Of a stretch of 64,000 nt of DNA, positions 5,225 through 58,305 are shown in pieces. The notes under the pieces are model-generated. The model was given only the letters and a program-made list of their open reading frames with translations, did no database searches and was not told the DNA's origin. The first letter of the stretch is position 1. Each line of letters begins with the position of its first letter. The DNA is taken from contig CAVXWK010000001.1 in NCBI GenBank assembly GCA_963765435.1, forward strand, positions 699,294 to 763,293, given 5' to 3'. This DNA is from an uncultured delta proteobacterium. GTDB taxonomy: Bacteria; Desulfobacterota; BSN033; UBA1163. The position numbers were made by a program, and so were the translations under genes.

Positions 5225-5235
5225 CTTCCTTAACC

Positions 5236-5284
5236 TAACCCCCCTCTTTCCCCCCTTAATTTAACGGGGGATGAAGGGGGGTTA
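5236..5284. repeat. 48-bp double-hairpin palindromic element (copy A)
   Basis: TAACCCCCCTCTTTCCCCCCTTAATTTAACGGGGGATGAAGGGGGGTTA; near-identical copy at 16253-16302. Confidence 0.6.
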
Positions 5285-5324
5285 CATGAGAGAAAAACCG
5301 CCTCACCTTTCTCTTCTCCCCAGA

Positions 5325-5551
5325 GAGACTGTGTCACAATTTATAAAAGCCCGTCCCAAATAGGGCGGAAAAGGCGGTCGGGTGGAAAAGCTTTAGAGCG
5401 GCAACCTTTACGCGTGAAATTCAGACCTTGAAGATCCATGAGATGACTCCATTTTCCATAAGCACCCATTAGTCATTCCTAAAAGACCGCATTCTAAAGC
5501 ATTGAAACCCGACTGTCTCTTCCGCCAGGGCGGCGATTACGACACAGTCTC
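5325..5551. mobile_element. 227-bp MITE-like element with 11-bp terminal inverted repeats GAGACTGTGTC (copy 1)
   Basis: near-identical reverse-complement copy at 42061-42287; no ORF; flanked by CTCTCC...GGAGAG hairpin arms. Confidence 0.6.
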
Positions 5552-5564
5552 AGAGGAGAGGGAG

Positions 5565-6002
5565 TCAGGGTGAGGAGGATTTTGTGTCGATAGGTTTTTT
5601 GACAACCTCATTCTGTATTCGGTCCAAAATGCCGTTAATGAAATTTCCAGACTCCTCGGATCCATACCGTTTTCCGAGATCGATGGCTTCGTTGATGGTA
5701 ACTTTGGGAGGAATCTCTTCACAGTAGAGGAGTTCAAACAGAGCCATACGAAGGATATTTCGGTCGATCATGTTGATGCGATCTAAACGCCAATTTTCTA
5801 AGTATTGTTCGATCAGCCGATCTAACTCTCGACAGTGCTCCAAAACACCCAGGACAAGCCGTTTCAGAAAAGGATCCACCTCTTCTTGGGGTGAAAAATT
5901 TTCCTGAAATTGGGCGAGAGCCTTATTGGCATCTTCCTTCGTTATATTCAATTGATAAAGAACCTGGAGGGCAAACTCCCTCGATTTTCTTCTTCTCCCC
6001 AA
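5565..6002 (-). CDS. nusB: transcription antitermination factor NusB
   Basis: MGRRRKSREFALQVLYQ NusB N-terminus. Confidence 0.9.
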   Translation of the reverse strand: MGRRRKSREFALQVLYQLNITKEDANKALAQFQENFSPQEEVDPFLKRLVLGVLEHCRELDRLIEQYLENWRLDRINMIDRNILRMALFELLYCEEIPPKVTINEAIDLGKRYGSEESGNFINGILDRIQNEVVKKPIDTKSSSP

Positions 6003-13675: not shown

Positions 13676-13928
13676 TCAAAAAATCGCAAAGGGCTCGCCG
13701 CATAGCGCAAAGCGTCAAACGGCGCTCAACTTGTTTGTCATCATATCATAATATGAAGAACCGTTGGATGCGCCACACTAGCGCAGTAAATCTAACACTT
13801 CTTTACAACAATAAAAGTTGTCCTTCCCGCGAAGGCGGGAATCCAGCTTATAAAGACTGGATTCCGGATCAAGTCCGGAATGACGGCGTCTGTAAAGCAA
13901 TTTACGGGCGCCACTTTAGCGCTGTGCG

Positions 13929-16146: not shown

Positions 16147-16252
16147 TCTTTTACCCTCTCTTTTCTATTTGAATTAAGCGAATCAAACCCCGCCCGTTAG
16201 GGCCACCGGGCCCAAAGCTTTCAATATATTGTGTGTGTCGCACCTTTCCTTG

Positions 16253-16302
16253 TAACCCCCCTCTGTTCCCCCCTTAAATTAAGGGGGGATGAAGGAGGGT
16301 TA
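16253..16302. repeat. 48-bp double-hairpin palindromic element (copy B)
   Basis: overlaps plsX stop codon, about 105 bp upstream of the acyl-CoA dehydrogenase start. Confidence 0.6.
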
Positions 16303-17355
16303 ACGTATCGATTTAACCTCCCCGTTCACCCGATCCGGTCGTTTTTGCCCCAGACGAAACAGATCCTCTTTCTCCTTAAGCTCTTCAATGACATGCTCGT
16401 TCAGTCTATTCTTGGCCAAGTTTGAGGCCAAGAGAATGGCATTCATGATCGCCTTGCCATTCGACGAACCATGGCAGATGAGGCAGTTGCCGTTAATCCC
16501 CAAGAGGGGCGCTCCTCCAACTTCTGCATAGTCAAGCCTCTTTTCCAGGCGACGAATCGCCCGCCCCATCAGGAAATAGGCCGCTTTCGCTCTAATATTA
16601 TCCTCTGCTTCCTGCTTGAGAATCGCGTGGATGGTCTCCCAGAGCCCTTCGCTTACCTTTAACGCCACATTTCCAACGAAACCGTCGCATACCATGACAT
16701 CCACTTCTCCGTTGTTGAGATCCCGGCCCTCCACGTAACCGACATAGTTCAAATCGGTCTCCGACAAAATATCATGCACCTCTCGCGTCAGCTCATTTCC
16801 TTTCCCTTCTTCCTCTCCGTTGCTCAACACGCCAATTCGAGGGCTTTCCTTTCCCAGGATATATTTTGCATAGGCATCCCCCATCATTGCAAACTGGACA
16901 AGATGAAAGGGTTTGCAATCCACCGTGCCGCCGGAATCAATGAGGACCGTGCTGCCTTTGGTGGTGGGATGGATCGTGGCAATAGCAGGCCGTTCCACGC
17001 CTTCCAATTTTTTCAAGATATACATCGCCAAACCCATGGCCGCTCCTGAATTTCCGGCGGAGACCACGCCGCTGGCCTGACCCTCTTTTGCCAGATCGAG
17101 GGCAACCTTGATCGAGGTATCTTTCATCCTCCGGATGACCGTCGACGGAGAGTCATGCATGGCAACCACGAATGGAGCATGGTGGATGTAGATCGCGAGT
17201 TTTGAGGTAGGGTATTTGGACAGTTCCTTGCTTACTTGATCCTCGTCCCCCACCAAAACCACCTTGACCCCGTATTCCTTTGCCGCTAAGACGGCTCCCT
17301 CCACAATCCCTTGAGGGGCAAAATCCCCTCCCATCGCATCGACCGCAATCTTCAT
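16300..17355 (-). CDS. plsX: phosphate acyltransferase PlsX
   Basis: MKIAVDAMGGD start, PlsX family. Confidence 0.9.
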   Translation of the reverse strand: MKIAVDAMGGDFAPQGIVEGAVLAAKEYGVKVVLVGDEDQVSKELSKYPTSKLAIYIHHAPFVVAMHDSPSTVIRRMKDTSIKVALDLAKEGQASGVVSAGNSGAAMGLAMYILKKLEGVERPAIATIHPTTKGSTVLIDSGGTVDCKPFHLVQFAMMGDAYAKYILGKESPRIGVLSNGEEEGKGNELTREVHDILSETDLNYVGYVEGRDLNNGEVDVMVCDGFVGNVALKVSEGLWETIHAILKQEAEDNIRAKAAYFLMGRAIRRLEKRLDYAEVGGAPLLGINGNCLICHGSSNGKAIMNAILLASNLAKNRLNEHVIEELKEKEDLFRLGQKRPDRVNGEVKSIR

Positions 17356-20036: not shown

Positions 20037-20105
20037 AATTACTAGGGACCGTCATTCCGGACTTGATCCGGAATCCAGTCCTTTCAACCGAATTCCCGGT
20101 TTAGG

Positions 20106-20879: not shown

Positions 20880-21070
20880 ATTAGGAAACGATTACACCGA
20901 TCTAGTCCCCTTTCATCCCCTTTGTCAAAAGTGGGAAACCTCTCTCCTATTGGCAAACGGGAGAAGTCTCTCCACTCTCTTTACCGATACGGAGAAACCT
21001 CTCTCCCCCCTTCAGCAGAGGGGAAAAACCCCTCTCCTCCCTTTGGAAAAGGGAGGCTGGGAGGGATTTT
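20880..21070. repeat. cluster of 4-5 tandem degenerate 30-bp stem-loops (CCTCTCTCC-N-GGGAGAA type)
   Basis: gggaaacctctctcc / gggagaagtctctcc / ggagaaacctctctcc / ggggaaaaacccctctcctcc seen directly. Confidence 0.5.
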
Positions 21071-21105: not shown

Positions 21106-21276
21106 TCACTTGTCAAGAGGACCCCTTACACCGAGCACGTTCTTTGAGGCAACATGAGTGTAGATCATGGTGGTCTGGAGTTTTTGATAGCCGAGCAGTT
21201 CTTGACTCGTCCTGAAATCATATCCATTTTCAAGCAGGTATCCCGCAAACCGCTGTTCCAATGTATGGACAGAAAC
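21106..21276 (-). pseudogene. intI: integron-integrase (IntI-like tyrosine recombinase) C-terminal remnant B
   Basis: rc translation [56 protein letters not shown]; stop immediately upstream, no start codon. Confidence 0.6.
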
Positions 21277-21347
21277 CTATTTTGTTATCCCCGTTTGCTG
21301 CACTGCAGGCCTAAATGCCCGCTTTGACAGGGGGGGAAGTATTATGG

Positions 21348-21755
21348 TTAAAGCGGCTTTTTCATGTAAAGATTGTCAAGGGGGCTTTTTGGAATACTTA
21401 CCATATCTCTTATCACATGGGTGTAGATCATTGTGGTTTCAAGATGCTTATGACCCAGTAAACTCTGGATCTCCCTGATATTCACTCCGTTCATTAAAAG
21501 ATGTGTTGCGAAACTGTGTCTGAGGGTATGCACGGATGCGTGTTTCACAATGCCTGCCTTTTTCAGGGCCTCTTTTACAGCATTCTGAATCGCCTTCTCG
21601 CTTACATGGTGGCGTCTTATCTTTCCGCTTCTTGGGTCAACCGAGCGTTTTGATGAGGGGAAAACATACTGCCAGCCCCATTCTTTTGCGGCATTTGGAT
21701 ATTTGCGTTCCAGAGCATCTGGAAGGTAGACCTCCCCATGTCCTTCTGAATAGAC
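21348..21755 (-). pseudogene. intI: integron-integrase (IntI) C-terminal remnant A (N-terminal ~200 aa missing)
   Basis: [41 protein letters not shown] (IntI-specific patch) ...[12 protein letters not shown]...TTMIYTHV...SPLD; in-frame stop at 21756-58. Confidence 0.7.
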
Positions 21756-23637: not shown

Positions 23638-23830
23638 ATGACCCGTCCTCTTCGCATAGAACACCCTGGTGTCGTGTATCATGCTACCTCTCGCGGCAAC
23701 GAAAAGAAGAAAAGAAGGCCGTCGAGAGATATGCGTGCAGGCAGAGCGAGATTGCCCGGCACCTGAGTCTGCACGTCTCTCCTGTGAGCAATATTCTCCG
23801 TGTTAGAAATTGGCACCATAACAAAAGACC
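23638..23830 (+). pseudogene. remnant of IS200-like Y1 (REP-associated-type) transposase
   Basis: MTRPLRIEHPGVVYHATSRGN N-terminus then premature stop; downstream frame has EIARHLSLHVSPVSNILRV HTH-like piece. Confidence 0.45.
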
Positions 23831-28031: not shown

Positions 28032-28196
28032 AACTAACAGGGTCAGGTCTCAACAATCAACAAGGCTTTTTCACAAGTTAAGACCAGGCCAATTTCCAGA
28101 CCCCAAAGCCTTCACTGACAGAAAATAATTTTCTATTTTCGAACCGGCAGAAGAAGCGATTCTGAAAAGGCGACTTTTTCAACAGTCCCTTTACAT
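28032..28196. repeat. attC-like cassette-boundary repeat, family 1, copy 1
   Basis: about 150-bp imperfect repeat shared with 28785-28965 and 29575-29718; ends near GTTAAAA. Confidence 0.55.
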
Positions 28197-28212
28197 GTTA
28201 AAATAGATCTCC

Positions 28213-28386
28213 ATGAGTCTTACTGTCTTCAGAGAAAAAGGGTATAGATTTTATTTTCTTTCAAATGAAGAGAATAGAATCCATATCCACGTCACGTGCG
28301 AGGACGGAGAAGCTAAATTTAACATTGTTGAGGAGCATAGAGATGAAATCATTAAGGCGTCGCAAAAGCATTTCGGTAAGCGTTGA
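28213..28386 (+). CDS. DUF4160-family small protein
   Basis: MSLTVFREKGYRFYFLSNEENRIHIHVTCEDGEAKF matches DUF4160 pattern. Confidence 0.7.
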   Translation: MSLTVFREKGYRFYFLSNEENRIHIHVTCEDGEAKFNIVEEHRDEIIKASQKHFGKR

Positions 28387-28654
28387 AAATATAACCCCTC
28401 TTGGCATCTGGCTTTTTGTAAAAGAAACGGAATACTTTTTGAGCTATAAAGATTATCCTTATTTTATGGATCAAAGGTTGCGTTCCATACAAAATGTTCA
28501 GTTGCTTCACGGTTATCATTTATATTGGCCAGAATTGGATATTGATTTAGAAATTGATAACCTCGTAAATCCTCAAAAATACCCTCTGAAATCAAGCGCT
28601 ACAAAAAAGCGTCCGGCAACTCATTCAATGGGACGGCGAATAGCCTCCCGTTGA
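28343..28654 (+). CDS. DUF2442-family small protein (partner of DUF4160)
   Basis: MKSLRRRKSISVSVENITPLGIWLFVKETEYFLSY...LYWPELDIDLEID; overlaps upstream gene by 44 nt. Confidence 0.7.
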   Translation: MKSLRRRKSISVSVENITPLGIWLFVKETEYFLSYKDYPYFMDQRLRSIQNVQLLHGYHLYWPELDIDLEIDNLVNPQKYPLKSSATKKRPATHSMGRRIASR

Positions 28655-28784
28655 TTCTGTCGTTATACAATGGTTTGAAGGTCTTGGCAAACGGTGGTCT
28701 TCGCTACCATGAGCTGGCCGATGTCCAGCGCTGGGCGGAGTTTGTTAGGGTGAGGGGTCAGCCCTTGACGCAGGACAAATGGAA

Positions 28785-28965
28785 GCAAACAGGGTCAGGC
28801 CTCAAAAATCAACAAAGCTTCTTCAAAAGTTGAAACCAGGTCTTGGTACCAGACCCAAACATTTTCAACGACAGAGAATCATTTCCTATTTTTGATCCGG
28901 CAGAAGAAGCACTTCTTTAAAAAGCACCAATTTCTACAAGCTTGTTGCAAGGAAAATAGGTTGTT
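28785..28965. repeat. attC-like cassette-boundary repeat, family 1, copy 2
   Basis: shared core ...CATTTCCTATTTTTGATCCGGCAGAAGAAGCAC... Confidence 0.55.
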
Positions 28966-28982
28966 TCCAAAATGCACACAAT

Positions 28983-29282
28983 GTGCTACTATATAAGCGG
29001 ATGAAGTATATAAATTGGAATACGGAAAAAAGCCTGAGACTCAAGGAACTGAGAGGAATTTGTTTTGAGGATGTAGTGTACCATATTGAAAAAGGCGACG
29101 TTCTCGATGATTATGAGCATCCGAATCAAAAGCGATATTCAGGACAGCGGATAATGGTGATCGGCATAGACAACTATGCATACCTTGTCCCCTACGTTGA
29201 GGACATAGAAGAAATATTTCTGAAGACTATTATCCCGAGCGGGAAGGCTGCTGAAATTTATTTTGGGGGAAAAGCGAAATGA
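28983..29282 (+). CDS. BrnT-like (DUF497) type II toxin
   Basis: INWNTEKSLRLKELRGICFEDVV...DDYEH...QRIMVIGI pattern; followed by BrnA-like gene with 4-nt overlap. Confidence 0.6.
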   Translation: MLLYKRMKYINWNTEKSLRLKELRGICFEDVVYHIEKGDVLDDYEHPNQKRYSGQRIMVIGIDNYAYLVPYVEDIEEIFLKTIIPSGKAAEIYFGGKAK

Positions 29283-29557
29283 AAAACAGATTGGCGGAAG
29301 AAGAACAGGCAATATTGGACAGTTTTGAAAGAGGGGAATGGGTCCCAGTAAAGGCTCTTGCAAAACGGAAAAGAGAGCTAATCCGATACGCGAGAAACAC
29401 TTTAAAGAAAGATAAGAGATTGAACATCCGGATTTCCGAAAGAGACTTGAATGAACTGCAAAAAAAGGCAGTGAGCGAGGGATTGCCCTATCAGACATTT
29501 GTTTCCAGTATCATTCATAAATATGTTAACGGCAAACTAGTAGAGGCCAAGCGCTGA
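29279..29557 (+). CDS. BrnA-like ribbon-helix-helix antitoxin
   Basis: LNIRISERDLNELQKKAVSEGLPYQTFVSSIIHKYVNGKL typical BrnA/CopG antitoxin C-terminus. Confidence 0.7.
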   Translation: MKNRLAEEEQAILDSFERGEWVPVKALAKRKRELIRYARNTLKKDKRLNIRISERDLNELQKKAVSEGLPYQTFVSSIIHKYVNGKLVEAKR

Positions 29558-29574
29558 TTAAGAAGATCAAGTCC

Positions 29575-29718
29575 CGAAGATCAAGGTTCTTCAAAAGTTG
29601 AGACCAAGTTTCGTGACCAGACCCGGGGACTTCCAATGACAGAGAATCATTTCCTATTTTTGATCCGGCAGAAGAAGCACCTTTTAAAAAAGTGACCTTT
29701 TCTACAAGCTCGTTGGAT
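29575..29718. repeat. attC-like cassette-boundary repeat, family 1, copy 3 (ends in GTTGGAT core)
   Basis: GTTGGAT at 29712-29718 fits GTTRRRY 6 bp before the SDR start codon. Confidence 0.55.
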
Positions 29719-29723
29719 GGCCC

Positions 29724-33405: not shown

Positions 33406-33469
33406 CCGCGTTGAGGCTGTAGAAAAAGCCAATCTCGACCGAATCCGGTGAGTTGGATGAAAACGCGCC
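33406..33469. repeat. repeat family 2, copy a (CGCGTTGAGGCTGTAGAAAAA...GGTGAGTTGGATGAAAACGCG)
   Basis: about 65 bp, 85-90% identical to 34292-34358; CGCGTT...AACGCG termini. Confidence 0.55.
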
Positions 33470-33583
33470 GTCTCAGGATGCTTTATATATGAGCATCTCA
33501 TACCGGGAGGGGTCAAGATCCCCCAAAAACCACCCCCTCATTGTAACGGTGAGCTTTCTCTAAAGGCTCTTATCATTTTGCTC

Positions 33584-34291: not shown

Positions 34292-34358
34292 CCGCGTCGT
34301 TGAGGCTGTAGAAAAATTCAATCTGGTCCGAATCCGGTGAGTTGGATGAAACCGCGCC
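34292..34358. repeat. repeat family 2, copy b
   Basis: see 33406-33469. Confidence 0.55.
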
Positions 34359-34443
34359 CTCAATTCGATGCTTCTGAGTTAAAAACAGGTTGACACCTTC
34401 CTTTCACGTACATATAATCCTTTCATCTATAGAACAAACTTAA

Positions 34444-35729
34444 GGCAACCTCTAAAAATGTGAATTTTGAAAGTTAGAAATTCGTTGAATCGAATTCAGA
34501 GAAAATGTTAAGCACAAAACCCAATCGTTCATCTTACGAAACCTATTTGAACCGATCTTTTGATCGCTTGTTAACGATCCTACCGGGTCATTTTGCCCGG
34601 TGGATATACTCGGGGGACTCATGTCCCCACCACCACGCAGTAGCGATCCAAATTGTAAGCCAGATTCCTCAAACCAACCTTGGCCTTGACCCGGACCAGG
34701 CCAATGGCCCGTACAATCAGCCTTCCCGCTCGCTTCGCCTGCACCCCAAAGACATGTTCCACACGACTCCGAATTCGGGAACGCGTTCGGTTCCCCTGAG
34801 CCTCTCGGTCCGTCAGTGTCTTGTGCCTGCATCCTTTACGCTGAAGATGCTCCCGATACTTCCGTTTCTTCAACTCCTTGAGCTTTTCCTCCGAACGGTA
34901 CGCCGAGTCTGTCCACACATCTCGACTGCTGTTATCCTCATCCAGAAGATCCTCAAAGACCTGACTGTCATGAACCGACGCGGGCGTCACTTCATAACTG
35001 CGAATCAGTTTATGTTTCACATCCACATCGATATGATTCTTATAACCGTAGTAGTTCTGGCCATTCTTCTTGGTCCAGCGGGCATCCGTATCCTTCTGCC
35101 GCTTCTTCTGTTCGCTCCAGTCTTCTGGAATCTCTCCTTGCTTGATTCGCTTATTCTCTTCCCGACTGTTCCGCTGTTTCGGCACAGCAACGATACTGGC
35201 GTCCACAATCTGCCCTTTCCGGGCCGAGAAGCCTTGTTCGCAAAGATACGTTTCAAATTGCTCAAAGGCTTTCTCAATCACCCCGGCTTCGGTCAATTGC
35301 TCCCGAAACAACCAGATGGTCTTAGCGTCCGGAACGTCATCTCCCAAAGACAAATCCAAGAATCGCATAAACGAGAGACGATCCCGAATCTGAAACTCTG
35401 CTTGCTCGTCCGACAGATTGTACAGCGATTGAAGAATCAGCACCTTGAACATCAACACAACCTCAAAGGGTTTTCGACCCGCACTGGATTTGCGCTCTTT
35501 GTCTCGCACCGCTTCCAGCAGAGGTCGAAATCGGCCCCAGTCCACCATTGTCTGAATCCTGGGGAGCGGGTCACCGCCCTTGTCCAACTGTTTAAAACGT
35601 ATCTGCCAATCCAACAAACCGGTCTGCATCATCTGTTTTCCTCCTGCCTCGTTTTTGGTGACCGTAACATACTGGTTGTTAGATTGGTAGAGTGTTGATA
35701 GTAAATTTAGCTAATTTTTAGAGGAACCC
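34444..35729 (-). mobile_element. IS5-family insertion sequence (IS5 group), 16-bp imperfect IRs GGCAACCTCTAAAAAT, 4-bp TSD TTAA
   Basis: IRs and flanking TTAA at 34440-43 and 35730-33 seen directly. Confidence 0.8.
34619..35632 (-). CDS. IS5-family DDE transposase
   Basis: 337 aa, KKNGQNYYGYKNHIDVD...TPASVHDSQ motif. Confidence 0.85.
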   Translation of the reverse strand: MMQTGLLDWQIRFKQLDKGGDPLPRIQTMVDWGRFRPLLEAVRDKERKSSAGRKPFEVVLMFKVLILQSLYNLSDEQAEFQIRDRLSFMRFLDLSLGDDVPDAKTIWLFREQLTEAGVIEKAFEQFETYLCEQGFSARKGQIVDASIVAVPKQRNSREENKRIKQGEIPEDWSEQKKRQKDTDARWTKKNGQNYYGYKNHIDVDVKHKLIRSYEVTPASVHDSQVFEDLLDEDNSSRDVWTDSAYRSEEKLKELKKRKYREHLQRKGCRHKTLTDREAQGNRTRSRIRSRVEHVFGVQAKRAGRLIVRAIGLVRVKAKVGLRNLAYNLDRYCVVVGT

Positions 35730-41016: not shown

Positions 41017-41949
41017 CTACATAATCAGCGCCAAAAGGGCTTTTTGGGCATGGAGCCTGTTCTCTGCCTGGTCGAAGATAACGCTATTTTGCGAATCGGC
41101 CACTTCGTCCGTCACCTCTTCTCCCCGGTGGGCCGGCAAACAGTGCATGAAAAGATAATCCTCTCTTGCTTCTTTGACTAGCTTGGCGTTGACCTGGTAG
41201 GGTTTTAAAATTTTCACCCTTTTTTCGCGCTCCTTTTCCTTACCCATACTGGTCCATACATCCGTATAAACAATATCGGCTCCTCTCACAGCCTCCTTCG
41301 GATCATTCGTTACCTTCACCTTGCAACCGCTTCTTTTCCCCTCTTCCCTCGCCTCGGAGACCACCTGTGAATTAGGCTCATATCCTTTCGGACATCCAAG
41401 GGCGATATCCATTCCTACCTTGGAGCAGCCGTAGAGCAGGGAGTGGGCTACATTGTTGGCGTCGCCGACATAGGCAAGCCTCAATCCTGAAAACCGTCTC
41501 TTCTTCTCGTAAATGGTGAAAAGGTCAGATAAGCCTTGGCAGGGATGCGTGAAGTCTGAAAGCCCGTTGATCACTGGCACTTTGGAATATCTTACCAGAT
41601 CGATGATGGTCTGATGAGCAAAGACCCTTGCCATAATTCCGTTCACATAACGGGAGAGAACTTGAGCTGTATCAGCAACGGTCTCCCCGCGGCCTAATTG
41701 CAGATCGCTGGCATTCAGATAGAGCGCATAACCTCCGAGTTGCCACATTCCCACTTCAAAGGAAACCCTTGTTCGCGTGGACGGCTTCTCAAAGATCATC
41801 GCCAGCGTTTTCCCCTTTAAAAGAGGATGTTCCTCTCCGCGAAGCAATTGAGATTTCAATAGTTCCGCCGTCTTTAGGATCTGCTCAATTTCCTCCCTGG
41901 TTAAATGGAAAAGGCTATCTAACGATCTTCCTTTTAAGTTTACTGCCAT
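41017..41949 (-). CDS. argF: ornithine carbamoyltransferase
   Basis: STRTRVSFE, HCLPAHRGEE motifs. Confidence 0.9.
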   Translation of the reverse strand: MAVNLKGRSLDSLFHLTREEIEQILKTAELLKSQLLRGEEHPLLKGKTLAMIFEKPSTRTRVSFEVGMWQLGGYALYLNASDLQLGRGETVADTAQVLSRYVNGIMARVFAHQTIIDLVRYSKVPVINGLSDFTHPCQGLSDLFTIYEKKRRFSGLRLAYVGDANNVAHSLLYGCSKVGMDIALGCPKGYEPNSQVVSEAREEGKRSGCKVKVTNDPKEAVRGADIVYTDVWTSMGKEKEREKRVKILKPYQVNAKLVKEAREDYLFMHCLPAHRGEEVTDEVADSQNSVIFDQAENRLHAQKALLALIM

Positions 41950-42060
41950 GCTTCCCTATTCGACCTCCTCCACTATTAATCAAACATTTCCATTCATAAT
42001 ACCTTAACGCCTTTGTCCTGTCCATAATGAATCCACCCTCACCCCGGCCCTCTCCATCAA

Positions 42061-42287
42061 GAGACTGTGTCGTAATCGCCGCCCTGGCGGAAGAGACAGT
42101 CGGGTTTCAATGCTTTCGAATGCGGTCTTTTAGGAATGACTAATCGGTGCTTATGGAAAATGGAGTCATCTCATGGATCTTCAACGTCTGAATTTCACGC
42201 GTAAAAGGTTGCCGCTCTAAAGCTTTTCCACCCGACCGCCTTTTCCGCCCTATTTGGGACGGGCTTTTATAATTGTGACACAGTCTC
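42061..42287. mobile_element. 227-bp MITE-like element (copy 2, inverted relative to copy 1)
   Basis: reverse complement of 5325-5551 with only a few mismatches. Confidence 0.6.
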
Positions 42288-42375
42288 CAAGGGAGAGGGA
42301 GAACCGGATCGAGTCAATTCTATTTTTGGGATTAAAATTTGGGATTAAAATTGGCCTTGACTTCTACTCATTGAT

Positions 42376-50202: not shown

Positions 50203-50277
50203 TGGCTGGGGTGGGAGGATTCGAACCTCCGAGTCCAGGTTCCAAAGACCTGTGTCTTACCGCTTGACGACACCCCA
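50203..50277 (-). tRNA. tRNA-Gln (anticodon TTG)
   Basis: rc folds as cloverleaf: acceptor UGGGGUG/CACCCCA, anticodon loop CUUUGGA, T-arm GGUUCGAAUCC, 3' GCCA. Confidence 0.8.
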
Positions 50278-58246: not shown

Positions 58247-58305
58247 GGACGAAACCCCCTCACCCCATCCCTCTCCCCCGATGGGGAGAGGGGAGGGTAA
58301 GGGGA

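What the first reader, a model, noticed from the sequence alone, without database searches (positions are those of the whole stretch)
5325..5551. 227-bp MITE-like element present twice, near-identical, in inverted orientation, inside CTCTCC/GGAGAG hairpin contexts
Copies at 5325-5551 and 42061-42287 differ at only a few positions. Each carries 11-bp terminal inverted repeats GAGACTGTGTC...GACACAGTCTC and has no ORF. Both are embedded between C-rich and G-rich arms (…CTCTCC(CC) | element | (GG)GAGAGGG…) that resemble this genome's REP-like hairpins, which suggests insertion into REP hairpins. A Y1/RAYT-type transposase remnant elsewhere in the window (23638-23830) belongs to a class that could mobilise such elements.
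Basis: seen in the sequence. Interest (0 to 1): 0.6.

Follow-up and report, generated by a model that had tools for sequence, protein, structure and literature searches.

The report
Hairpin-loop-seeking MITE of an IS1182-family transposon
The two 227-bp copies are a small non-coding hitch-hiker transposon (MITE) whose ends match those of an IS1182-family insertion sequence that inserts at the centre of short DNA hairpins; this is a new example of a known kind of element, not a new system.

Summary
Two 227-bp copies (5325-5551 +, 42061-42287 -) differ by 3 substitutions and 2 one-base indels. Both have perfect 11-bp terminal inverted repeats (TIRs; 14 of 16 bp), no ORF over 42 aa and no Rfam match. 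Each is flanked by a 3-bp target duplication (AGA; CAA) inside the loop of a CCTCACC..CTCTCC / GGAGAG..GGTGAGG host hairpin.

The mobiliser is not a Y1/RAYT enzyme. The same 16-bp TIR (GAGACTGTGTCRYAAT) bounds 1.70-1.75-kb elements in metagenomes. These encode a 477-482-aa transposase that scores 367 bits on NCBIfam 'IS1182 family transposase' (cut-off 270). Transposase homologues found by protein search alone carry the same TIR.

The TIR also bounds more than 150 other MITE-like elements of 117-285 bp, in Thermodesulfobacteriota and MAGs labelled as five other groups (Acidobacteriaceae/Korobacteraceae, Nitrospira, Elusimicrobiota, Bacteroidota, Dehalococcoidia). About 60-65% have perfect 3- or 4-bp duplications (control 2%). 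About 59% lie between complementary arms (control 2%).

Palindrome targeting by IS1182-family elements and an IS1182-linked MITE (MITEPye1) are already published. No precise empty site was found, and no autonomous copy was shown in this genome.

The parts
5325..5551 (+). MITE copy A, 227 bp. TIRs are GAGACTGTGTCACAAT and ATTACGACACAGTCTC. The whole element folds as one long imperfect hairpin.
   Evidence: sequence, alignment, TIR search. (RNA fold -84.3 and -90.6 kcal/mol, z -7.4 and -6.1). (no ORF over 42 aa). (no Rfam hit).
5322..5324 (.). Left copy of the 3-bp target-site duplication AGA of copy A.
   Evidence: systematic scan.
5552..5554 (.). Right copy of the 3-bp target-site duplication AGA of copy A.
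5301..5321 (.). Left arm (CCTCACCTTTCTCTTCTCCCC) of the host hairpin split by copy A. On the nusB-sense (-) strand the reconstructed hairpin is followed by UUUUUCUCUC, so it looks like the intrinsic terminator of nusB.
   Evidence: reconstruction and fold (-26.6 kcal/mol when empty; the host stem still closes the structure when occupied, -122 kcal/mol).
5555..5575 (.). Right arm (GGAGAGGGAGTCAGGGTGAGG) of the host hairpin split by copy A.
42061..42287 (-). MITE copy B, 227 bp, inverted relative to copy A. It lies 112 bp upstream of the aspartate/ornithine carbamoyltransferase-family gene at 41017-41949 (-).
   Evidence: The same insertion is present in other assemblies of the organism.
42058..42060 (.). 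Left copy of the 3-bp target-site duplication CAA (+ strand) of copy B.
42288..42290 (.). Right copy of the 3-bp target-site duplication CAA of copy B.
42033..42057 (.). Host hairpin arm (+ strand CCACCCTCACCCCGGCCCTCTCCAT) split by copy B.
   Evidence: fold of the reconstructed empty site (-27.6 and -35.0 kcal/mol).
42291..42310 (.). Host hairpin arm (+ strand GGGAGAGGGAGAACCGGATC) split by copy B.
58256..58305 (.). Unoccupied paralogous target: CCCCCTCACCCCATCCCTCTCCCCCGATGGGGAGAGGGGAGGGTAAGGGG. It is the same two-tier palindrome with an intact 4-nt loop.
   Evidence: -40.6 kcal/mol.

Best explanation
The two copies are members of a MITE family. A MITE is a non-coding, non-autonomous DNA transposon. 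A DDE transposase of an IS1182-family insertion sequence mobilises it in trans by recognising the shared 16-bp ends, GAGACTGTGTC(G/A)(Y)AAT. This IS group selects short GC-rich palindromes, such as REP-like hairpins and terminator stems. It joins its ends symmetrically about the dyad axis, so that 3 nt (odd loops) or 4 nt (even loops) of the loop are duplicated on either side. Copy A landed in the loop of the terminator-like hairpin after nusB. Copy B landed in a similar hairpin upstream of a carbamoyltransferase-family gene. The MITE is itself a long hairpin, so the host stem still closes the structure. Shown: the element anatomy, the target duplications, the hairpin context, the family-wide statistics, and autonomous IS1182-family elements with identical ends. 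Inferred: trans-mobilisation, recognition of structure or dyad symmetry, and any effect on termination.
For: (1) Anatomy. (2) A genome-collection scan for TIR-N(190-220)-TIR returned 65 loci, against about 1 expected by chance (my estimate for 596 Gb). Most are Thermodesulfobacteriota; others are MAGs labelled Acidobacteriaceae/Korobacteraceae, Nitrospira, Elusimicrobiota, Bacteroidota and Dehalococcoidia. Of the 74 elements extracted from those loci, locus L003 and the window, 26 including both window copies form one homologous family with conserved arms. (3) Target duplications: 42 of 72 elements have a perfect 3- or 4-bp duplication. In an independent metagenome sample, 65.5% have a duplication of 3 bp or more (control 2.2%) and 58.6% lie between 6 or more complementary pairs (control 1.8%). 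(4) Autonomous partners: L146, L130, L143, L169 and L184 are 1.70-1.73-kb elements with the same TIR and a 477-482-aa ORF. The L146 ORF scores 367 bits on NF033551, IS1182 family transposase (cut-off 270), and matches Pfam DUF772, DDE_Tnp_1 and DDE_Tnp_1_6. (5) Independent check: homologues found by protein similarity alone sit in 1734- and 1721-bp elements with the same TIR, inside CTCCCCC/GGGGGGAG and CCTCTCCCC/GGGGAGAGGG hairpins. These are P0102 (NCBI MBM4322740.1, named IS1182 family transposase) and P0058. Both TIR variants of the window MITE (..ACAAT and ..GTAAT) occur on autonomous copies. (6) Named IS1182-family elements share the TIR core xAGACyGTGTxxxAA. The ISPpu20-family copy on pWW53 duplicates the 5-nt loop TTAAT of the hairpin AAAAACCCGCC/GGCGGGTTTTT, and a Paracoccus marcusii copy duplicates GATC at a palindrome centre. 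(7) Dyad centring: in 44 of 66 scorable insertions the duplication is equidistant from both stems. All 13 scorable 4-bp duplications sit in even-length loops, and 40 of 53 scorable 3-bp duplications sit in odd-length loops. (8) Literature: IS1272 and other IS1182-family members target inverted repeats, and the published model includes a 'loop duplicated' outcome (PMC5678879). MITEPye1 is an IS1182-linked MITE with 4-bp direct repeats (PMC11578231).
Against: No autonomous copy was shown in the window or in the window's own genome; only 64 kb could be read. The MITE shares only the terminal 16-18 bp with the sampled full-length elements, so it is not demonstrably a deletion derivative of them. 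No precise empty site was recovered. Relatives with 92-96% identical NusB have an unrelated 63-bp nusB spacer that lacks both the host hairpin and the MITE. About a third of elements lack a perfect duplication, and several have inverted rather than direct flanks (L030, L038, L046, L130). The interior of the family is more conserved than mobilisation would need, and it shows 14 stem pairs with compensatory changes. Selection on a hairpin (DNA or RNA) therefore cannot be excluded.
Confidence: 0.88

Rival explanations
1. One reading: the element is a REP/REPIN-like unit mobilised by a Y1 (RAYT or IS200-type) transposase, a remnant of which lies at 23638-23830.
For: The element is palindromic and sits among REP-like hairpins. 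The ORF at 23638 begins MTRPLRIEHPGVVYHATSRGN, which from memory resembles the N-terminus of Y1-type transposases.
Against: The element has terminal inverted repeats and 3-4-bp target duplications, which HUH/Y1 elements do not make. Identical ends bound DDE IS1182-family elements. No Y1_Tnp or RAYT HMM match was found for the remnant.
Confidence: 0.02
2. The conserved interior encodes a functional structured RNA or a regulatory hairpin, for example a processing or terminator module or an antisense regulator of the transposase. Under this reading the element persists for that function and its mobility is secondary.
For: Both strands fold far better than shuffles. In 14 non-redundant family members, 49 consensus pairs include 14 with both-sided compensatory changes. 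On the aligned strand, G-U pairs (41) outnumber A-C pairs (5). Blocks such as GGCGGTCGGGTGGAAAAGNTTTAGRGCGG are conserved across many MAGs. Copy A extends a terminator-like hairpin.
Against: There is no Rfam match. The two window copies have opposite orientations relative to local transcription. The G-U excess comes from about 3 inherited positions, so it is not statistically independent. Other families with the same TIR have unrelated interiors. Arm-arm covariation can also arise from templated repair within palindromes. No expression data are available.
Confidence: 0.08
3. The element is mobilised by a REP-targeting transposase of another family. The closest candidate is the IS3 family, as for IS1397, ISKpn1 and ISPsy8, which also give 3-4-bp duplications in REP loops.
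For: The duplication length and the loop targeting resemble the IS3-family cases described in PMC1525189.
Against: The ends are GAGAC..., not the TG...CA typical of the IS3 family (from my knowledge of that family). Every full-length element found with these ends encodes an IS1182-family transposase, not OrfA/OrfB with an rve domain.
Confidence: 0.02

Closest known systems
MITEPye1 of Paracoccus yeei, with its IS1182-family partner ISPye18 (PMC11578231)
   Same: It is small (159 bp) and ORF-less, folds into a long stem-loop and lies in intergenic regions. It is flanked by short direct repeats (4 bp). Its TIRs match those of an IS1182-family IS that is presumed to mobilise it in trans.
   Different: The host phylum and sequence differ, and copy number is low (1-3). 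The passages I read do not mention hairpin-loop targeting. Our transposase group is at most 36% identical to the plasmid-borne alphaproteobacterial IS1182-family transposases found.
IS1272 and other IS1182-family insertion sequences that target palindromes (PMC5678879; ISPpu20-family copy on pWW53)
   Same: They have a DDE transposase of the same NCBIfam family and about 16-bp TIRs with the related core xAGACyGTGTxxxAA. Their targets are inverted repeats or stem-loops of varied sequence. The pWW53 copy duplicates exactly the loop of a terminator hairpin.
   Different: New IS1272 insertions replaced the stem-loop and left no duplication. The group here leaves the stem intact and duplicates 3-4 nt of the loop, which corresponds to 'pathway c' of the published model. 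The window holds only the non-autonomous derivative.
REP-targeting insertion sequences IS1397, ISKpn1 and ISPsy8 (IS3 family) and ISRm22 (PMC1525189)
   Same: They insert specifically into REP-type palindromes. ISPsy8 gives 3-bp direct repeats. ISRm22 inserts exactly at the palindrome axis.
   Different: They belong to different transposase families (rve OrfAB; IS4-type) with different ends. Each is tied to the REP sequence of one species, whereas this TIR group is found in several distinct hairpin classes in MAGs of several phyla.
REPINs with RAYT
   Same: They are palindromic, intergenic, multi-copy, non-coding repeats.
   Different: REPINs have no TIR-plus-duplication anatomy and are linked to a Y1 transposase. 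Neither feature fits here.

Membership tests
MITE (non-autonomous class II element) | Small size and no transposase ORF | tested here: met
   The element is 227 bp and its longest internal ORF is 42 aa.
MITE (non-autonomous class II element) | Terminal inverted repeats | tested here: met
   Perfect 11-bp TIRs, 14 of 16 over 16 bp. Family-wide conservation stops sharply after position 16.
MITE (non-autonomous class II element) | Target-site duplications flanking the copies | tested here: met
   AGA and CAA in the window. In the wider family, 58% of 72 and 65.5% of 87 elements have a duplication of 3 bp or more, against about 2% in controls.
MITE (non-autonomous class II element) | Several copies at unrelated loci | tested here: met
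   Two loci in the window. A third left flank appears in assembly GCA_052143695.1. Contigs of other assemblies break inside the element. The homologous family is present in 15 or more MAGs.
MITE (non-autonomous class II element) | Autonomous element with matching ends | tested here: met
   Seven intact 1.70-1.73-kb elements from different contigs with the same 16-bp TIR encode an IS1182-family transposase; L204 (1745 bp) is a decayed copy. None was shown in this organism's own genome.
MITE (non-autonomous class II element) | Filled versus precise empty site (evidence of insertion) | tested here: inconclusive
   Relatives with 92-96% identical NusB lack the whole hairpin-plus-MITE block and have an unrelated 63-bp spacer. 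Only a paralogous unoccupied hairpin was found.
IS1182 family (for the partner element) | Transposase matches the family model above its curated cut-off | tested here: met
   NF033551 at 367.2 bits against a cut-off of 270. Pfam DUF772, DDE_Tnp_1 and DDE_Tnp_1_6 also match. NCBI names homologue MBM4322740.1 an IS1182 family transposase.
IS1182 family (for the partner element) | Ends related to those of named family members | tested here: met
   GAGACTGTGTCGCAAT compares with CAGGCTGTGTGAAAAC (ISPpu20-family copy, pWW53) and CAGACCGTGTGAAAAC (Paracoccus, Sphingomonas). This is a comparison by eye of three elements, not a statistical test.
IS1182 family (for the partner element) | Preference for palindromic targets (described for some members) | tested here: met
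   for this group, and for the pWW53 copy. Literature: PMC5678879.
REP / REPIN-RAYT system | Associated Y1 (RAYT) transposase gene | tested here: not met
   No Y1_Tnp or RAYT match for 23638-23830. Full-length elements with these ends carry a DDE gene.
REP / REPIN-RAYT system | No TIR-plus-duplication anatomy; short tagged palindromes of 20-40 bp | tested here: not met
   The element is 227 bp with TIRs and 3-bp duplications.
Known structured RNA (Rfam) | Covariance-model match | tested here: not met
   The only gathering-level hit in the window is a tRNA at 50206-50277. Nothing overlapping the element scored better than E = 7.4 in the permissive scan (one chance-level whalefall-1 hit at 5513-5577, 11.4 bits against a gathering score of 37).

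The most novel reading that the evidence does not exclude
The transposase of this IS1182 subgroup may choose targets by dyad symmetry or cruciform structure rather than by sequence. It would then integrate exactly on the axis of almost any short GC-rich hairpin, with a 3- or 4-bp stagger set by whether the loop length is odd or even. Its MITEs are long hairpins themselves, so they would extend terminator or REP stems rather than destroy them. Such a low-cost 'safe harbour' strategy could explain why one 16-bp end sequence has seeded many unrelated MITE families across several phyla, including nested self-insertions.
Probability: 0.4. Interest if true: 0.5.

Novelty: new member of a known kind. 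Interest (0 to 1): 0.3.

Why it matters
For annotation, this explains a repeat that breaks assemblies of this Syntrophaceae-like lineage and creates spurious small ORFs. It also corrects the presumed mobiliser from a Y1/RAYT enzyme to a DDE IS1182-family transposase. For mobile-DNA biology, the family offers a large natural data set of more than 150 insertions in several hairpin classes and phyla. That set could be used to study how IS1182-family transposases pick palindromic targets, a property that the papers I read mention with little sequence-level documentation. The rule linking loop parity to duplication length, and the possible sparing of terminators, can both be tested directly.

Tried and rejected
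Rfam gave nothing for the element at gathering or at permissive threshold.

Full-text search for the TIR sequence returned only unrelated primer hits.

blastn of the element against PLSDB plasmids gave no match.

A scan of IMG/VR for the TIR gave 22 solo matches with no partner end, which I judged to be chance.

I looked for an autonomous copy in the 65 genome loci by relaxed TIR pairs and by multi-copy ORF clustering. None was found; the long pairs in L065 and L057 enclose ordinary genes.

I looked for MITE-to-IS homology beyond the TIR. Only the terminal 16-18 bp are shared.

I looked for an empty site using identical and 90-99% identical NusB and carbamoyltransferase proteins. The results were occupied sites, contig breaks in the MITE, or relatives lacking the whole block.

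I tested strand-specific G-U bias as evidence for an RNA. The bias is real in counts but rests on about 3 inherited columns, so I rejected it as evidence.

IS3-family and IS5/IS1031-type parents, which I considered from the duplication length and the 'GAG' ends, were dropped once full-length elements were found.

Full report
**Observation.** The window holds two 227-bp copies of one element, at 5325-5551 (+) and 42061-42287 (-). They differ by three substitutions and two single-base indels. Each ends in the perfect 11-bp inverted repeat GAGACTGTGTC...GACACAGTCTC. Exact matches to that 11-mer occur only at these four ends; allowing one mismatch there are 6 matches against 0.63 expected by chance. 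No internal ORF exceeds 42 aa. Rfam has no match for the element at gathering or permissive threshold. The whole element folds as one long imperfect hairpin on either strand (z -7.4 and -6.1).

These are AGA (5322-5324 and 5552-5554) and CAA (42058-42060 and 42288-42290). Outside the duplications lie complementary arms of a two-tier host palindrome, CCTCACC..CTCTCC / GGAGAG..GGTGAGG. An intact, unoccupied hairpin of the same design with a 4-nt loop lies at 58256-58305.

**Host and local context.** YchF and NusB homologues place the organism among uncultured Syntrophaceae-like Thermodesulfobacteriota. Copy A lies between nusB (5565-6002, -) and a Peptidase_M17_N-like gene. With the element and one AGA removed, the nusB-sense strand folds into a GC-rich hairpin followed by UUUUUCUCUC, which looks like an intrinsic terminator. 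With the element present, the host stem still closes a roughly 150-pair hairpin ahead of the same U-run. Copy B lies 112 bp upstream of an aspartate/ornithine carbamoyltransferase-family gene.

Other assemblies of the same organism carry both insertions, and their contigs often end inside the element, as expected for a dispersed repeat. In GCA_052143695.1, copy B is joined to a different left flank (GTTCCTCCCCCTTCAA). This is either an assembly chimera or recombination through a further copy.

**Family.** A scan of one genome per species for TIR-N(190-220)-TIR returned 65 loci, where I estimate about one by chance. Most are Thermodesulfobacteriota MAGs (Smithella, Syntrophaceae, Syntrophorhabdus, Desulfobacteraceae). 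Others are labelled Acidobacteriaceae/Korobacteraceae, Nitrospira, Elusimicrobiota, Bacteroidota and Dehalococcoidia. The ends are conserved over exactly 16 bp, GAGACTGTGTC(G/A)(Y)AAT, and conservation stops at position 17.

The interiors fall into many unrelated families. Of the 74 elements extracted from these loci, L003 and the window, 26 including both window copies form one homologous family, found only in MAGs labelled Deltaproteobacteria, Thermodesulfobacteriota or Syntrophorhabdus. This family has strongly conserved arm blocks and a variable centre. Some other families are built from GTCATKCCGG...CCGGMATCCAG-type hairpin modules. These also serve as insertion targets, which produces nested copies (L005, L024, L061).

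**Insertion signature.** In the genome set, 42 of 72 elements have a perfect 3-bp (33) or 4-bp (9) duplication abutting the ends. An independent metagenome sample was selected on one end only and yielded 88 elements. Of the 87 with enough flanking sequence to score, 65.5% have a duplication of 3 bp or more and 58.6% lie between 6 or more complementary pairs. Position-shuffled controls give 2.2% and 1.8%.

Among 66 insertions with a perfect duplication and a clean stem, the duplication is equidistant from both stems in 44. All 13 scorable 4-bp duplications sit in even-length loops, and 40 of 53 scorable 3-bp duplications sit in odd-length loops. Integration is therefore centred on the dyad axis. 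This parity statement is equivalent to saying the offsets are symmetric, and it depends on how I defined the stems.

A minority of elements have inverted rather than direct flanks (L030, L038, L046, L130). I attribute this speculatively to templated 'perfecting' of long quasi-palindromes.

**Autonomous partner.** The metagenome scan recovered elements of 1702-1745 bp bounded by the same 16-bp ends (L146, L130, L143, L169, L184; L204 is a decayed copy). The intact ones carry one 477-482-aa ORF. The L146 protein scores 367 bits on NCBIfam NF033551 'IS1182 family transposase' (cut-off 270) and matches Pfam DUF772, DDE_Tnp_1 and DDE_Tnp_1_6.

As an independent test I searched by protein. More than 6000 homologues exist, many on contigs of about 1.7-2 kb. 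Two of them were chosen without reference to DNA ends. P0102 (NCBI MBM4322740.1, named IS1182 family transposase) sits in a 1734-bp element and P0058 in a 1721-bp element. Both elements have the same TIR and lie inside CTCCCCC/GGGGGGAG and CCTCTCCCC/GGGGAGAGGG..GGGTGAGGG hairpins. The two TIR variants of the window MITE (..ACAAT..GTAAT) both occur on autonomous copies. The MITE shares only the terminal 16-18 bp with these elements.

**Relation to known elements.** Plasmid-borne elements annotated IS1182 family (one named as ISPpu20 family) are at most 36% identical in protein, but their ends are visibly related. They read CAGGCTGTGTGAAAAC on the ISPpu20-family copy of pWW53 and CAGACCGTGTGAAAAC in Paracoccus and Sphingomonas. 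The pWW53 copy duplicates the 5-nt loop TTAAT of the terminator-like hairpin AAAAACCCGCC/GGCGGGTTTTT. The Paracoccus copy duplicates GATC at a palindrome centre.

The literature already reports that IS1272 and other IS1182-family members target inverted repeats, and it models an outcome in which only the loop is duplicated (PMC5678879). It also describes an IS1182-linked MITE, MITEPye1 (PMC11578231). REP targeting is known for IS3, IS110, IS4, IS256 and IS5 family elements (PMC1525189).

**What remains open.** I found no precise empty site. Lineages with 92-96% identical NusB have an unrelated 63-bp nusB spacer. A lineage with 96% identical NusB (L232) has the orthologous copy A with mutated ends, so that insertion is not recent. 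I could not test whether the window's genome holds an autonomous copy. A full-length element does occur in a sibling sample of the same ENA series, ERZ25039515.

The family's arms show 14 stem pairs with compensatory changes, and G-U pairs outnumber A-C pairs on one strand. The latter rests on about three inherited columns. The former can also arise through arm-to-arm repair. A functional RNA or DNA hairpin is therefore possible but not shown.

The claimed RAYT remnant at 23638-23830 has no HMM support and plays no part in this explanation.

**Verdict.** Insertion into REP-like hairpin loops is well supported. The mobiliser is an IS1182-family DDE transposase, not a Y1/RAYT enzyme. This is a new member, and a broad and well-populated subgroup, of a known kind. 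It is of modest interest beyond annotation, mainly as material for studying palindrome-centred target choice.

Noticed in passing
window 5234-5287 and 16251-16304: A second small palindromic repeat of about 50 bp, GTAACCCCCCTCT.TTCCCCCCTTAA.TTAAGGGGGGATGAAGGRGGGTTAC, occurs twice at about 85% identity. The first copy lies next to MITE copy A. It is absent, together with the MITE, from the nusB spacer of related lineages.
   Followed up: partly
window 13852-13886 and 20049-20083 (also 13830-13848): Hairpins of the GTCATTCCGG..CCGGAATCCAG class occur as a 35-bp inverted pair at 97% complementarity. In other genomes the same class is both a target of MITEs with this TIR and an internal building block of them (L005, L010, L041, L048).
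   Followed up: partly
window 21106-21548 (- strand), next to CTCTCC-type repeats at 20900-21070: Two adjacent C-terminal fragments (51 and 66 aa) match the end of integron integrase and XerC/D models (TIGR02249, E 3e-14 and 1.5e-22, far below the full-length cut-off). They look like decayed tyrosine-recombinase genes beside a cluster of small palindromes.
   Followed up: partly
window 23638-23830: A short ORF begins MTRPLRIEHPGVVYHATSRGN, followed after a frameshift by an HTH-like stretch. It looks from memory like a heavily deleted Y1-type transposase, but no Pfam or NCBIfam match supports that.
   Followed up: yes
window 28036-29720: Three tandem units about 750-770 bp apart share segments of 53-138 nt at 75-87% identity (repeat families D1, D2, D5). 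They are probably tandem paralogous small genes with conserved upstream regions.
   Followed up: no
window 33409-33472 and 34298-34361: A 64-nt direct repeat at 91% identity, 889 bp apart, flanks the region before the 397-aa ORF at 34505-35698, which has no Pfam match.
   Followed up: no
L211 2600-2700 (GCA_052143695.1 JBKQSF010000053.1): Copy B has the window's right flank but a different left flank and different upstream genes (an alcohol dehydrogenase and a PIN-domain gene). This is either an assembly chimera or a rearrangement through another MITE copy.
   Followed up: partly
L232 2008-2343 (ERZ25039467 contig_1748): This is an orthologous copy A in a lineage whose NusB is 96% identical. 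Both ends are mutated (GGGACTGTGTC and GAGACAGTCTC), which indicates an old, decaying insertion.
   Followed up: partly
L005 410-712, L024 2087-2443, L061 7139-7474: MITEs with this TIR are inserted into the GAAA loop of a hairpin module inside another MITE with the same TIR, giving nested self-targeting.
   Followed up: partly
L030, L038, L046, L130 element flanks: The 3-4 nt on either side of the element are reverse complements of each other rather than direct repeats (for example CCCCTTCA|..|TGAAGGGG). The palindrome therefore runs uninterrupted from the host stem into the TIR. Possible causes are blunt insertion at a loopless palindrome or later quasi-palindrome correction.
   Followed up: no
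metagenome loci L091-L210: The commonest element with this TIR in metagenomes is about 130-139 bp (29 of 88), not the 227-bp type of the window. Further modes lie at about 141, 155 and 240-249 bp.
   Followed up: partly
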